Assembly: GCA_046293175.1 (NCBI GenBank)
Contig: JBKBPM010000001.1
Location: 593,408 to 657,407 of the forward strand
Length of the DNA stretch: 64,000 nucleotides
Direction: 5' to 3'
Source of the DNA: Minisyncoccia bacterium
GTDB lineage: Bacteria > Patescibacteriota > Minisyncoccia > Phycocordibacterales > UBA918
Made by a program: the position numbers and the translations under genes. Shown piece by piece: positions 3,197 to 51,002 of the stretch; the first letter of the stretch is position 1; the number at the start of each line of letters is the position of its first letter. The notes beneath the pieces were generated by a model. The model was not told the origin of the DNA. It searched no databases and saw only the letters and a program-made list of their open reading frames with translations.

Positions 3197-3584
3197 ACAG
3201 TAGGTATGTGACCACCGATACTGACATGCCAAGTACCGTACCCCAGGCCATATCGACGAGCGTTATTGACAGTGGCCAATCACGTAAGGTAGCGAGATTC
3301 GTGAGATCATACGTTGCATAGGTAAAGAATCCGAAGAGGGCGCCGTAGATAAGTGCGTATTGCCACTCACCTTTTACTACCGCTGGGTAAATTGCAAACA
3401 TAACCAGACCAACAAGGAACACGAGATAAAAAATAATTGCTGCTGTCCAATTAATATCCCCCATGATGTAGCCGAGTTTTTCTTTGTAAAAATTACTCGC
3501 CACCAACCCAAGCCAGACCATATCAATCGTAAAAAAGATTGGGACCGATATAAGGTATAACGTCAAAAATTGGCTGATATTCAT
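3180..3584 (-). CDS. Small polytopic membrane protein (DUF2177-like)
   Basis: 134 aa with four predicted TM helices and clear coding periodicity. Confidence 0.45.
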   Translation of the reverse strand: MNISQFLTLYLISVPIFFTIDMVWLGLVASNFYKEKLGYIMGDINWTAAIIFYLVFLVGLVMFAIYPAVVKGEWQYALIYGALFGFFTYATYDLTNLATLRDWPLSITLVDMAWGTVLGMSVSVVTYLLYARFI

Positions 3585-5429: not shown

Positions 5430-5505
5430 ATTAATGCAAATTACTTGTATTAACTAGAATAACAAAACATCGCTCATAATGCAATATATTTGCATTAATG
5501 ACATG
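5430..5505. promoter_or_regulatory. Two Fur-family (Zur-like) palindromic boxes in the zupT/zur divergent promoter region
   Basis: Box 1 is attaatgcaaattacttgtattaa (about 5432-5455). Box 2 is the near-perfect palindrome taatgcaatatatttgcatta (about 5476-5496). Box 2 overlaps a -35 TTGCAT (5490-5495) that pairs with a -10 TATACT (5514-5519), placing the transcription start at about the zur ATG (5526). Confidence 0.55.
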
Positions 5506-5525
5506 AGATGCGCTATACTTTACGT

Positions 5526-48085: not shown

Positions 48086-48158
48086 GCCAATGTAGCTCAG
48101 TTGGTAGAGCACATCCATGGTAAGGATGAGGTCTCCAGTTCAATCCTGGACATTGGCT
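48086..48158 (+). tRNA. tRNA-Thr (anticodon GGU), no encoded CCA
   Basis: Acceptor and D-arm are identical to the divergent tRNA-Thr(CGU). Anticodon loop is ATGGTAA. Confidence 0.8.
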
Positions 48159-48160
48159 CA

Positions 48161-48205
48161 TAAATCAAAAAACGTCCGTCAGGGCGTTTTTTGATTTATG
48201 AGCCA
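48161..48205. terminator. Long perfect palindromic terminator that includes the tRNA-Thr 3' end
   Basis: ctcataaatcaaaaaacg-tccgtcagg-cgttttttgatttatgag with 18-nt arms. Confidence 0.65.
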
Positions 48206-48370
48206 ATGTAGCAAGCCAACTGCTTGGCTTGTGTCCAAGATTGAAAGCCGCAGCTATGTTTTTTGCTTAGGTAAAGCAAAAAACTGCGAGGCGGGGTCGA
48301 GAACACTTAGTAGATTAGGAACGTAGTGAACTAATATACTTAGTGATTCGTGACCGATCCTTTCACCACT
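48206..48370. repeat. tRNA-linked repeat R1: inverted partial copy of the tRNA-Thr 3' half with a 22-nt hairpin insert, followed by a conserved core of about 85 nt
   Basis: Reverse complement of 48181-48250 reads ggctTTCAATCtTGGACA[caagccaagcagttggcttgct]ACATTGGCTCATAAATCAAAAAA, against the tRNA's CCAGTTCAATCCTGGACATTGGCTCATAAATCAAAAAA. The core gcgaggcggggtcgagaacacttagtagattaggaacgtagtgaactaatatacttagtgattcgtgacc recurs at 50758-50830. Confidence 0.55.
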
Positions 48371-48968: not shown

Positions 48969-49108
48969 ATAAAATTATAACACCAGAAAGGACTTAAACA
49001 TTACATGTTCAGTACCCCAATTGGCTTGATTGATGCGCTTCGCTTTCAATCCAGCTCAATCGGGCTTCGAGTCCCGCCCATATGTGTCCCACACATATGG
49101 GCATCGAT

Positions 49109-49140
49109 CGCTCACGAAAAAAGCCAGCTTTGGGCTGACT
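49109..49140. terminator. Hairpin terminator 3' of tRNA-Asp
   Basis: aaaaaagccagc-tttgg-gctgactttttt with 12-nt arms and one mismatch. Confidence 0.55.
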
Positions 49141-49150
49141 TTTTTCTTTG

Positions 49151-49224
49151 CGCGGTCGAAGGGACTCGAACCCTCGGCCTCTTCCGTGACAGGGAAGCGC
49201 TCTAACCAGCTGAGCTACGACCGC
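49151..49224 (-). tRNA. tRNA-Asp (anticodon GUC)
   Basis: GCGGTCG-TA-GCTC-AGCTGGTTA-GAGC-G-CTTCC-CTGTCAC-GGAAG-AGGCC-GAGGG-TTCGAGT-CCCTT-CGACCGC-G. A promoter TTGCCA-N17-TATAAG sits immediately upstream (reverse complement of about 49233-49262). Confidence 0.8.
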
Positions 49225-49304
49225 AGATATGCCTTATACTGCCACAAAGTAACAGTGGCAAGAGTATATACACTTTTCGTAAAAAGGGCAATATCTTGCG
49301 TGAT

Positions 49305-49632
49305 GTCGATGAGAGAGAACGATCCTGACTGGATCTGTAGACCTTTTCTGTCGTTCATTTCGCGTTGCTCACAAACGTCTAGAAAAGGTCATCCTTCCCT
49401 CACAAGCAGTCCCCCGGACTGCTTTCTATCAACAGCCGAACACTGCCATCACTGGCAATGTTCTTTGTGTCGATGGGAGGGAACGAATCTTACAGATTCA
49501 GTACACCTTTTCTGTCATTTGTTTCGCGTTGCTCACAAACGTCTAGAAAAGGTCATCGTTCCCTCACAAGCAGTCCCCCGGACTGCTTTCCATCAACAGC
49601 CGAACACTGCCATCACTGGCAATGTTCTTTGT
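49305..49632. repeat. Two tandem 164-bp repeat units, each starting with a copy of the 3' end of the adjacent tRNA(CAT)
   Basis: Units 49305-49468 and 49469-49632 are about 90% identical. Each begins gtcgatgRgagRgaacgatcct, which is the reverse complement of the tRNA T-arm plus acceptor 3' strand. They contain internal hairpins (ACCTTTTCT…AGAAAAGGT; GCAGTCCcccGGACTGC). ORF-track entries 49030..49686 and 49458..49664 are artefacts of this repeat. Confidence 0.7.
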
Positions 49633-49705
49633 GTCGATGGGAGGGAACGATCCTCCGACCTTAGCTTTATGAGTGCTACGCTCTAACCAACTGAGCTACA
49701 TCGAC
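49632..49705 (-). tRNA. tRNA-Met or tRNA-Ile2 (anticodon CAU) with an unusual T-loop (ATCGTTC)
   Basis: GTCGATG-TA-GCTC-AGTTGGTTA-GAGC-G-TAGCA-CTCATAA-AGCTA-AGGTC-GGAGG-ATCGTTC-CCTCC-CATCGAC-A, with G1:C72 paired. Confidence 0.65.
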
Positions 49706-50572: not shown

Positions 50573-50643
50573 AGCGGGTTAGAGGAGAGGTACCTCGGGA
50601 GGCTCATAACCTCCAGACCCCGGTTCGATTCCGGGACCCGCAA
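50573..50643 (+). tRNA. tRNA-Met (anticodon CAU), possibly the initiator
   Basis: The best fold uses A1 with a 1:72 mismatch, U8, D-stem GAGG/CCTC, anticodon stem GGAGG/CCTCC, loop CTCATAA, T-arm CCCGG-TTCGATT-CCGGG, and discriminator A. The mismatch at 1:72 and A73 are initiator-like. Confidence 0.6.
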
Positions 50644-50690
50644 CAATAACAAAAACCACCCAGATGGGTGGTTTTTGTTATTGTTGCGGG
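50643..50690. terminator. Long perfect palindromic terminator that includes the tRNA-Met 3' end
   Basis: caacaataacaaaaaccaccca-tct-gggtggtttttgttattgttg with 22-nt arms. Confidence 0.65.
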
Positions 50691-50838
50691 TCAGGAAGCA
50701 AATTATTTTGCTTCCGTCCGGAATCGAACAGCCGCAGCGATGTGAGGCGACTCCGCAGGAGCCGAACCAGCGAGGCGGGGTCGCGAGTACTTACTAGAAT
50801 TGGAATGAAATGAACAATTATAGTTAGTAACTCGTGAC
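50691..50838. repeat. tRNA-linked repeat R2: inverted partial copy of the tRNA-Met 3' half with a 22-nt hairpin insert, plus a conserved core shared with R1
   Basis: The reverse complement reads gctgTTCGATTCCGGac[ggaagcaaaataatttgcttcc]tgACCCGCAACAATAAC, against the tRNA's GGTTCGATTCCGGGACCCGCAACAATAAC. The core gcgaggcggggtcgcgagtacttactagaattggaatgaaatgaacaattatagttagtaactcgtgac aligns with 48283-48360. Confidence 0.55.
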
Positions 50839-51002
50839 TCGATGGAGGGACCTGTTTTTTAAAGAAGTTAAAATTTGTATCCTCTTATTTTACGATAGTC
50901 TTTTATTTACTAACTTTAATAAAATTAAAGTTATAAGACTGTATATTGCCATTAGTAATATGACACCAAAAACACCGGGGAAGACCGGCACTGAGACGAG
51001 AG

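What the first reader, a model, noticed from the sequence alone, without database searches (positions are those of the whole stretch)
48131..48370. tRNA-Thr locus: 18-nt-arm palindrome made from the tRNA 3' end plus an inverted partial tRNA copy carrying a 22-nt hairpin insert
Downstream of tRNA-Thr(GGU), the opposite strand carries an inverted duplicate of the tRNA's T-arm, acceptor 3' strand and 20-nt trailer. The two copies form a long perfect palindrome. The inverted copy is interrupted exactly between T-stem and acceptor stem by a perfect 22-nt hairpin (caagccaa-gcag-ttggcttg) with an apparent aca duplication. The same architecture, with unrelated sequences, occurs at the tRNA-Met locus (see next finding). 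A conserved core of about 85 nt follows in both. Candidates are a miniature hairpin-ended mobile element that targets tRNA trailers, an antisense or tRNA-like 3' module of a minus-strand transcript, or a recombination site.
Basis: seen in the sequence. Interest (0 to 1): 0.65.

Follow-up and report, generated by a model that had tools for sequence, protein, structure and literature searches.

The report
Mini mobile element replacing tRNA ends
The palindrome after tRNA-Thr is one end of a roughly 210-bp gene-less mobile element, widespread in ultra-small (Patescibacteria) bacteria, that inserts into the 3' ends of tRNA, tmRNA and ribosomal-protein genes, rebuilds the gene end it displaces, and carries an internal copy of its target that looks like a base-pairing guide.

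Summary
Downstream of tRNA-Thr(GGU) and of tRNA-Met(CAU, 50573) lie two copies of one element. Read on the minus strand it is: GUCAC, hairpin P2, CGACCCCGCCUCGC, hairpin P3, GCUGCGGCU, a sense copy of the tRNA from the T-loop to the trailer split by a hairpin, then a terminator shared with the tRNA.

Exact-pattern scans found about 170 further copies, mostly in Patescibacteria and some in Elusimicrobia. Nearly all converge on a tRNA (17 identities), a tmRNA, or the 3' end of rplL or rpsI.

Syntenic relatives show empty and filled sites. The element is therefore an insertion. It brings a new gene end and a new terminator, and pushes the old gene end outward.

The internal target copy matches the uninterrupted target across the insertion point: exactly 2 nt on the gene-body side (77/77) and at least 4 nt on the other. 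Two 96%-identical cores sit at different tRNAs in one contig.

The helices covary without any excess of G·U pairs. No promoter or linked protein gene was found.

My best reading is a non-autonomous insertion element targeted by base pairing, probably acting as folded DNA with an unknown enzyme supplied in trans. I found no description of it.

The parts
48086..48159 (+). Target gene tRNA-Thr(GGU). Under the insertion model, its positions 56-74 (48141-48159) are the replacement 3' end supplied by the element.
   Evidence: ARAGORN and Rfam; empty versus filled sites L124 and L122.
48160..48199 (.). Element-borne trailer and bidirectional terminator palindrome. It forms the centre of the 28-nt-arm inverted repeat.
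   Evidence: In L122 the equivalent terminator differs from the retained old terminator.
48200..48209 (-). Internal target copy, segment 2. On the minus strand it is a sense copy of tRNA positions 65-74.
48212..48231 (-). Branch hairpin that splits the internal target copy (8-bp stem, GCAG loop on the minus strand).
   Evidence: By eye, hairpins with covarying stems occupy the same place in relatives.
48232..48245 (-). Internal target copy, segment 1. It is a sense copy of tRNA positions 54-67. Its first two bases (T54, T55) pair with the gene-body side of the insertion point.
   Evidence: repeat I3; the 2-nt rule.
48246..48254 (-). Conserved GCUGCGGCU (P3 3' strand plus 2-nt linker).
48255..48285 (-). 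Variable part of hairpin P3.
   Evidence: Covariation.
48286..48299 (-). Conserved CGACCCCGCCUCGC (junction plus P3 5' strand).
48300..48349 (-). Hairpin P2, long variant, with conserved A·A and U·C mismatches.
48350..48354 (-). Conserved GUCAC, the 5' boundary of the element.
48355..48363 (-). Decayed remnant of the displaced original tRNA 3' end (CGATCCTTT against CAATCCTGG).
   Evidence: An intact 19-nt equivalent is present in L122.
50573..50644 (+). Second target gene, tRNA-Met(CAU).
50646..50681 (.). Element-borne trailer and terminator palindrome of the second copy.
50682..50729 (-). Internal target copy of the second element: segment 2 (50682-50692), branch hairpin (50694-50715) and segment 1 (50716-50729).
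50730..50838 (-). Core of the second element: GCUGCGGCU, P3, CGACCCCGCCUCGC, P2, GUCAC.
50839..50852 (-). Partly decayed displaced tRNA-Met 3' end (TCGATGGAGGGACC).
   Evidence: Empty sites in L121, L122 and L124.

Best explanation
Both loci hold a copy of a non-autonomous, structured insertion element of about 210 bp.

Shown:
- It is inserted inside the 3' part of a gene. Here that is the tRNA T-loop between positions 55 and 56. In other members it is at 71|72 to 73|74, or in the last codons of rplL or rpsI.
- It brings a replacement gene end and a new terminator. The original gene end is left as a displaced fragment on the far side.
- Next to its conserved three-way-junction core (GUCAC-P2-CGACC-P3-GCUGCGGCY) it carries a copy of the target. 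That copy is complementary to the uninterrupted target across the insertion point: 2 nt on the gene-body side and 4 to 19 nt on the gene-end side.

Inferred:
- This internal copy acts as a base-pairing guide that selects the insertion site and aligns the element's own end with it. Because the conserved core is the same whatever the target, one enzyme supplied in trans could serve many targets.
- The element probably moves through a small excised, probably circular, intermediate. The observed arrangement is what integration of such a circle would give, but no junction has been seen. In that form the guide and the element-borne gene end would fold into a rod that replicates the target duplex.
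- The helices are almost purely Watson-Crick on both strands and no transcription signal is conserved. I therefore favour folded DNA over an RNA guide.

The enzyme is unknown.
For: Insertion:
- L124 has the DUF2238 gene, a terminator and tRNA-Thr with nothing in between.
- L122 has the old terminator, a 19-nt displaced tRNA end, the element, a new terminator and then the tRNA.
- L121, L122 and L124 are empty at the tRNA-Met site that is filled in the window.

The gene end is carried by the element:
- In L209 the displaced flank still encodes GAKVTLK*, with synonymous differences from the new rplL end. Similar cases are L245 and L079.

Target association:
- 57 of 80 profile hits in genome contigs and 75 of 102 untruncated metagenome copies have a convergent tRNA. 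The median distance is 56 nt in the metagenome set.
- Other targets are tmRNA and rplL and rpsI.

Guide:
- Pairing with the 5' flank starts at offset 4 in 65 of 73 elements. The palindrome with the real gene extends exactly 2 nt further in 77 of 77.
- In the acceptor-end members those 2 nt differ between tRNAs and match each one.
- In L223 two cores that are 96% identical sit at tRNA-Leu and tRNA-Lys. Only CA|CAAA and GC|ACAA of the original targets match the guides.
- Cores do not cluster by target. The nearest neighbour shares the target in 14 of 91 cases, against a permutation mean of 7.6.

Structure:
- 90% of cells are paired against 72% in shuffles, and 21 pairs show double changes, with 0 of 500 shuffles as good.

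DNA rather than RNA:
- 919 Watson-Crick pairs, 15 G·T and 20 A·C.
- No promoter-like site.
- The upstream gene is on the same strand in 29 cases and the opposite strand in 42.
Against: - No enzyme was identified and no recombinase recurs near the elements.
- No excised form or junction was observed.
- There is no orientation bias relative to local gene direction. Insertion into lagging-strand single-stranded DNA, as in IS200/IS605, would predict such a bias. The proxy is crude.
- The lack of G·U is indirect evidence. Young copies or very stable hairpins could also lack it.
- Displaced flank and guide show no joint changes away from the gene (0 cases, against 24 and 21 single-sided changes). 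Pairing with the old flank is therefore not maintained after insertion.
- The route by which a lineage acquires a guide plus a full matching gene end, for example 19 nt of a tRNA, is unexplained.
Confidence: 0.55

Rival explanations
1. The element encodes an RNA guide in the manner of IS110/IS1111 bridge or seek RNAs. The core is the protein-binding scaffold and the target copy is the programmable loop of an RNA that directs a recombinase supplied in trans.
For: - The target copy is split by a hairpin, as guides on the two sides of an internal loop are.
- There is a precise 2-nt register at the insertion point.
- The scaffold is conserved while the target part varies.
Against: - Both guide segments have the same sense, whereas a bridge RNA reads the two DNA strands.
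- The 2 nt are not duplicated at both junctions.
- No DEDD recombinase is adjacent.
- No promoter was found and the transcription context is inconsistent.
- There is no excess of G·U.
Confidence: 0.17
2. The elements are deletion remnants or attP-only derivatives (like cis-mobilisable elements) of integrase-bearing islands or prophages. Such islands integrate into the 3' ends of tRNA, tmRNA, rplL and rpsI genes, and the sites are recognised by protein alone.
For: - From my own knowledge, the target repertoire and the sub-locations (T-loop, extreme 3' end, rplL, rpsI) are those known for tyrosine-integrase elements.
- The gene end is element-borne and the displaced fragment forms a direct repeat.
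- Tandem and nested arrays occur.
Against: - None of about 170 copies has an integrase or any gene between the repeats.
- One conserved core serves more than 20 different targets, even within one contig. A protein-only site recognition can hardly do this.
- The core helices covary in sequence, which protein-binding palindromes do not do.
- There is no match in phage, plasmid or IMG/VR collections.
Confidence: 0.12
3. It is a cellular or selfish structured RNA gene. Examples would be an antisense RNA against the tRNA 3' end, or a tRNA-like minihelix RNA made from the tRNA strand that is processed and CCA-tailed like a tRNA.
For: - On the tRNA strand the displaced gene end, paired with the inverted copy, would form an acceptor/T-stem minihelix. 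The branch hairpin would sit where the D and anticodon arms sit in a tRNA.
- Folding is strong, with z about -11.
Against: - The displaced end has decayed in the window copies and in many others, without compensation.
- Close relatives differ in presence or absence of the element.
- No promoter was found.
- Protein-gene targets cannot give a tRNA-like end.
- Rfam has no match.
Confidence: 0.08
4. There is no dedicated transposition. The cassette spreads between genomes only by natural transformation and homologous recombination. Its arms are the conserved gene body on one side and the duplicated gene end on the other.
For: - Both flanks of the insert are conserved gene sequence. Filled sites retain the recipient's own old terminator.
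- From my own knowledge, Patescibacteria are thought to take up DNA.
Against: - This cannot explain the same core at more than 20 unrelated targets.
- It cannot explain two 96%-identical cores at tRNA-Leu and tRNA-Lys with only 4-nt identity to the old flank.
- It cannot explain the exact 2-nt register.
Confidence: 0.06

Closest known systems
Integrase-mediated genomic islands and prophages in tRNA/tmRNA genes, and ICEs in the 3' ends of rplL or rpsI (from my own knowledge)
   Same: Inserts in the 3' part of the same kinds of conserved genes. The sub-locations are the same: T-loop or extreme 3' end. It carries a replacement gene end, leaves a displaced fragment as a direct repeat, and can stack in tandem.
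   Different: It is about 210 bp with no gene at all. It has a conserved three-way-junction core. It holds an inverted copy of the target that spans the insertion point. One core type serves many targets.
IS200/IS605-family elements and their non-autonomous derivatives (PATEs)
   Same: No terminal inverted repeats and no fixed duplication. The ends are hairpin-rich. Insertion is immediately 3' of a short sequence that pairs with a guide inside the element, and the element's own end carries the same short sequence.
   Different: Here the guide is 6-21 nt rather than 4-5 nt. It also pairs 2 nt beyond the cut. The element rebuilds the interrupted gene. No TnpA link and no strand bias were found.
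IS110/IS1111 bridge RNA or seekRNA systems
   Same: The target-matching sequence lies inside the element and is split by a hairpin. A 2-nt register is at the heart of site choice. The scaffold is conserved and the guide is exchangeable.
   Different: No adjacent recombinase. Both guide parts have the same sense. There is no 2-nt duplication. No sign of an RNA (no G·U excess, no promoter).
Folded single-strand recombination sites (integron attC, CTX-phage attP)
   Same: Structure rather than sequence is conserved. Two inverted copies can fold to rebuild a double-stranded replica of the chromosomal site.
   Different: The site differs for each target. No integron integrase or dif-like sequence is present. 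The partner enzyme is unknown.
Group IIC introns
   Same: On the element's strand the target is a terminator hairpin, then a short paired stretch, then the insertion point, then 1-2 further paired nucleotides.
   Different: About 200 nt instead of more than 400. No domain V/VI or GUGYG. No Rfam hit. No reverse transcriptase.

Membership tests
Integrase-borne island or prophage in a tRNA/tmRNA gene | Insertion in the 3' part of the gene, with an element-borne replacement end and a displaced fragment as direct repeat | tested here: met
   L124 empty against L122 filled; tmRNA cases; rplL and rpsI cases with the old C-terminus retained.
Integrase-borne island or prophage in a tRNA/tmRNA gene | A tyrosine or serine integrase gene lies between the repeats | tested here: not met
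   Only about 210 bp lie between the repeats and there is no ORF. No recombinase family recurs among the neighbours of 151 elements.
MITE | Terminal inverted repeats | tested here: not met
   By eye, the ends (GTCAC... and ...complement of the guide) are not inverted repeats of each other.
MITE | Target-site duplication of fixed length made at insertion | tested here: not met
   The identity block varies from 4 to 19 nt. The new gene end differs synonymously from the old one.
IS200/IS605-derived element (PATE) | Hairpin ends, and insertion 3' of a short sequence that pairs with an internal guide | tested here: met
   Covarying hairpins; flank-to-guide pairing with a fixed register. This shows that it works alike, not that it is related by descent.
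IS200/IS605-derived element (PATE) | Mobilised by a Y1 HUH transposase (TnpA) present in the genome | not testable with these tools
   Only 64 kb of the genome and 8-kb loci were available. No annotated complete genomes could be profiled.
IS200/IS605-derived element (PATE) | Orientation bias towards the lagging-strand template | tested here: inconclusive
   The fraction of coding sequence on the element strand has mean 0.45, with 18 loci above 0.6 and 25 below 0.4. Local gene direction is only a proxy for replication direction.
IS110/IS1111 bridge or seek RNA | A DEDD recombinase gene is adjacent to the RNA | tested here: not met
   By eye, the largest neighbour clusters are housekeeping genes and none looks like a recombinase. 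Pfam was run only on window genes and a few candidates.
IS110/IS1111 bridge or seek RNA | Core dinucleotide present at both junctions, with guides reading opposite DNA strands | tested here: not met
   The 2 nt occur once in both empty and filled sites. Both guide segments are sense copies.
Group II (IIC) intron | Domain V/VI and a GUGYG 5' end | tested here: not met
   No Intron_gpII or other Rfam hit at E<=1. The 5' end is GUCAC.
Known structured RNA families (tmRNA, tRNA-like, Y RNA and others) | Match to a curated covariance model | tested here: not met
   Rfam 15 gave only the tRNAs and chance hairpin hits.

The most novel reading that the evidence does not exclude
A previously unrecognised system for site-specific DNA insertion guided by nucleic-acid base pairing. 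A roughly 110-nt conserved scaffold is followed by an exchangeable guide that reads 2 nt plus at least 4 nt across the target. A small, still unknown enzyme encoded elsewhere in these reduced genomes would use it. The cargo replaces the end of the hit gene, so that essential genes can be targeted safely.
Probability: 0.3. Interest if true: 0.9.

Novelty: new variant of a known kind. Interest (0 to 1): 0.78.

Why it matters
If the reading is right, streamlined genomes of roughly 1 Mb carry many copies of a gene-less mobile element. It survives by landing in the most conserved sequences available (tRNA, tmRNA, rplL, rpsI) and repairing them as it lands.

It would be a compact, naturally retargetable insertion module. 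The rule relating guide to cut site is precise: a 2-nt linker, then 2 nt, then the cut. That rule is directly testable and could be useful for engineering.

It also matters for annotation:
- It explains palindromes, partial tRNA copies and 'extra' terminators downstream of tRNAs in these bacteria.
- It shows that tRNA 3' halves and terminators there are repeatedly replaced by foreign DNA.
- It gives markers of insertion history for strain-level comparison.

Tried and rejected
- **Known RNA families.** Rfam on both strands, with gathering and E<=1 thresholds, returned only the tRNAs and chance hairpin hits.
- **tmRNA, permuted tmRNA or split tRNA on the minus strand.** ARAGORN found nothing, and no 5' half is present.
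- **Group I intron in the T-loop.** The published Patescibacteria tRNA introns are at position 35/36. The core is too small and lacks a terminal G or a U at the splice site.
- **The 22-nt hairpin as a mini-transposon with an ACA duplication.** Rejected by family comparison (by eye).
- **Fold-back copying from the gene's own terminator as the origin of the inverted copy.** Rejected because in L122 the terminator next to the tRNA differs from the retained original one, and because the branch hairpin appears to be inherited.
- **A linked protein gene.** By eye, clustering of neighbours of 32 and then 151 elements gave only housekeeping synteny.
- **Phage or plasmid origin.** No match in INPHARED, PLSDB or IMG/VR.
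- **Strand call from folding energy.** The complement folds better in 52 of 52 cases. This is a composition effect, because the unbiased pair count shows no asymmetry.
- **Serine-recombinase-like 2-bp crossover.** The dinucleotide is not duplicated.
- **IS91 GTTC target.** The register does not fit.
- **Literature.** Five searches, one of them for the core sequence itself, found no description.

Full report
**What is in the window.** tRNA-Thr(GGU) lies at 48086-48159 and tRNA-Met(CAU) at 50573-50644, both on the plus strand. Each is followed by the same arrangement. A trailer and terminator come first. Its stem extends into a long palindrome with the tRNA 3' end; for Thr the arms are 48150-48177 and 48182-48209, 27 of 28 complementary. 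Next is an inverted copy of the acceptor 3' strand, then a short hairpin, then an inverted copy of the T-loop and T-stem 3' strand. Then come AGCCGCAGC, a variable hairpin, GCGAGGCGGGGTCG, a long hairpin and GTGAC. The 14-mer occurs exactly twice in 64 kb, where 0.15 matches (at up to 2 mismatches) are expected by chance. The core is 107 nt rather than 85.

**The family.** I read the core on the minus strand and scanned one genome per species with CGACCCCGCCTCGC-N22-42-GCTGCGG. A profile search of the fetched loci gave 80 hits. Many other pattern hits were chance matches in high-GC coding DNA. A stricter pattern gave 120 more loci from metagenomes. By their record titles the carriers are Saccharibacteria, Paceibacteria, Parcubacteria, Nomura-, Kaiser-, Adler- and Taylorbacteria and WWE3, plus Elusimicrobia. 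The window itself comes from a Candidatus Paceibacteria MAG.

- In 57 of 80 profile hits, and in 75 of 102 untruncated metagenome copies, a tRNA converges on the element. The median distance is 56 nt in the metagenome set, and 17 tRNA identities are represented.
- The other partners are tmRNA genes, tRNAs that ARAGORN misses, apparently because of group I introns, and the 3' ends of rplL (L182, L209, L245) and rpsI (L079, L172).
- Rfam has no family for the element. Five literature searches, one of them for the sequence itself, found nothing.

**Structure.** The core forms a three-way junction. The first arm, P1, pairs the 5' flank with the start of the target copy. The second is GGUC/GACC closing hairpin P2, which has a long and a short variant. 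The third is CCGC/GCGG closing hairpin P3. On 16 sequences 90% of cells pair against 72% in shuffles. Twenty-one pairs show changes on both sides, and none of 500 shuffles or slid registers comes close. An unbiased count over 51 distinct elements gives 919 Watson-Crick pairs, 15 G·T and 20 A·C. Wobble pairs are as rare as A·C mismatches and show no strand preference. The better folding of the complementary strand is therefore a composition effect.

**It is an insertion.** I fetched syntenic loci through the neighbouring DUF2238 gene.

- L124 has DUF2238, a terminator and tRNA-Thr(GGU) with nothing else between them.
- L122 has the homologous old terminator, then 19 nt identical to tRNA positions 74 to 56, then GTCAC and the element. 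After that come a different terminator, the same 19 nt again, and the rest of the tRNA.
- L121, L122 and L124 are all empty at the tRNA-Met site that is filled in the window.

The inserted block therefore consists of the core, the target copy, a new terminator and a new tRNA 3' end. The original end is pushed outward. In the window the displaced ends have decayed (48355-48363 and 50839-52) and the old terminators are gone, so these copies are older.

Protein-gene cases show that the new end is carried by the element rather than duplicated at insertion. In L209 the displaced flank still reads GAKVTLK* but uses different codons from the new rplL end.

Tandem and nested arrays occur in L038, L042, L073, L107 and L123.

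**The guide-like copy.** After GCUGCGG comes a 2-nt linker, CT in 90 elements and CC in 35. Then the target copy begins.

- Pairing with the 5' flank starts at offset 4 in 65 of 73 informative elements.
- The palindrome with the real gene reaches exactly 2 nt further in 77 of 77.
- Those 2 nt are present once in both empty and filled sites, so they belong to the target.

The copy is therefore complementary to the uninterrupted target across the insertion point. In members inserted at the acceptor end the 2 nt differ from tRNA to tRNA and match each one.

Cores do not cluster by target. In L223 two cores that are 96% identical sit at tRNA-Leu and tRNA-Lys. Only CA|CAAA and GC|ACAA of the original targets match the respective guides. 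One scaffold thus serves many targets, even within one genome. That is hard to reconcile with recognition by protein alone, and it is my main argument for targeting by base pairing.

**RNA or DNA.** Several observations argue against an RNA product.

- No promoter-like site precedes the elements.
- The upstream gene is co-oriented in 29 cases and opposed in 42.
- Units in tandem arrays abut without spacers.
- The helices lack G·U enrichment.
- Displaced flank and guide never change together away from the gene: 0 cases, against 24 and 21 single-sided changes.

I therefore favour a DNA-level element over an RNA gene or an RNA guide, though the evidence is indirect. A crude test found no orientation bias relative to local gene direction. 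That does not support insertion into the lagging-strand template in the IS200/IS605 manner.

**Mechanism: what is shown and what is inferred.**

- Shown: the insertion, the element-borne gene end and terminator, the guide register, the multiplicity of targets, and the absence of a gene inside the element.
- Inferred: an excised, probably circular, intermediate. In it the guide and the element-borne gene end would fold into a rod that copies the target duplex, and a trans-acting enzyme would bind the conserved core and cut at a fixed distance (linker plus 2 nt).
- Unknown: the enzyme. By eye, neighbours are housekeeping genes. There is no match in phage, plasmid or viral collections.
- Unexplained: how a lineage acquires a long matching gene end, for example 19 nt of a tRNA.

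The description is accurate. The 'mobile element' option is right in kind but wrong in unit and in target. The ACA repeat is coincidental. The antisense and tRNA-like transcript options are not supported.

**Comparison with known systems.** The element works most like two known kinds combined. One is integrative elements that replace gene 3' ends. The other is guide-using insertion sequences (IS200/IS605, IS110). It fails the defining features of each that I could test: it has no integrase, no terminal inverted repeats or fixed duplication, no adjacent DEDD recombinase or duplicated core dinucleotide, and no group II domains. I file it as a new variant of a known kind. I give about 30% to the reading that it is a distinct guided insertion system.

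Noticed in passing
window 49300-49652 (+ strand): Two to three tandem units of about 163 nt converge on tRNA-Met(CAU) at 49631-49705 (minus strand). Each starts after a partial antisense copy of the tRNA 3' end. Each contains a different, smaller core, a sense copy of the T-loop and T-stem, a hairpin, an acceptor copy and a terminator. The logic is the same as in the studied element, but the core differs and the insertion point is 51|52 in the T-stem. A related unit with a divergent GGTCAC core lies next to the orthologous tRNA in L123 (1331-1780).
   Followed up: partly
window 49065-49146 (+ strand): A core-less remnant converges on tRNA-Asp (49150-49224, minus strand). It has a sense copy of the T-loop and T-stem (cttcgagtcccgcc), a hairpin (catatgtgt-ccc-acacatatg), a decayed acceptor copy and a terminator.
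   Followed up: partly
L123 3400-4001: Three to four successive insertions are stacked at the 3' end of tRNA-Asp. A T-loop-type element with yet another core lies nearest the tRNA. Two acceptor-end-type copies of the studied family follow. Each displaces the previous tRNA end outward.
   Followed up: partly
L092 about 5480-5510, and L122 about 3270-3300: The same perfect 29-nt palindrome (GTGAAAAGCAATATTGAATTGCTTTTCAC) is inserted at the same place inside the element core (after CGACCC) in two different genomes. It may be a still smaller hairpin insertion.
   Followed up: no
L121 4771-5040; L122 4896-5150; L145, L160, L183, L211, L216: The orthologues of tRNA-Thr(GGU), and several copies of the initiator-like tRNA-Met, appear to carry a group I intron in the anticodon loop. 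I judged this from the sequence without running an intron model. ARAGORN does not call these genes. The window copies have no intron.
   Followed up: no
L122 1990-2673; L125 1137-1835; L128 and four further loci: Free-standing ORFs of about 230 aa lie just upstream of tRNA genes in several relatives. They have an N-terminal resolvase-type HTH (Pfam HTH_23/HTH_7) and a C-terminal part that looks like LAGLIDADG (LIAGLFLYWGEGGK). The window has no such ORF. L125 also has a large serine recombinase about 3 kb away.
   Followed up: partly
window 1-64000: 58 of 65 long ORFs are on the minus strand. The two tRNAs that carry the studied element are among the few plus-strand genes. Across the family, however, no orientation bias was found.
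   Followed up: yes
window 50573-50644: The tRNA-Met that carries the second element appears to have an A1·A72 mismatch at the top of the acceptor stem and an unusual D-arm. It may be the initiator tRNA.
   Followed up: no
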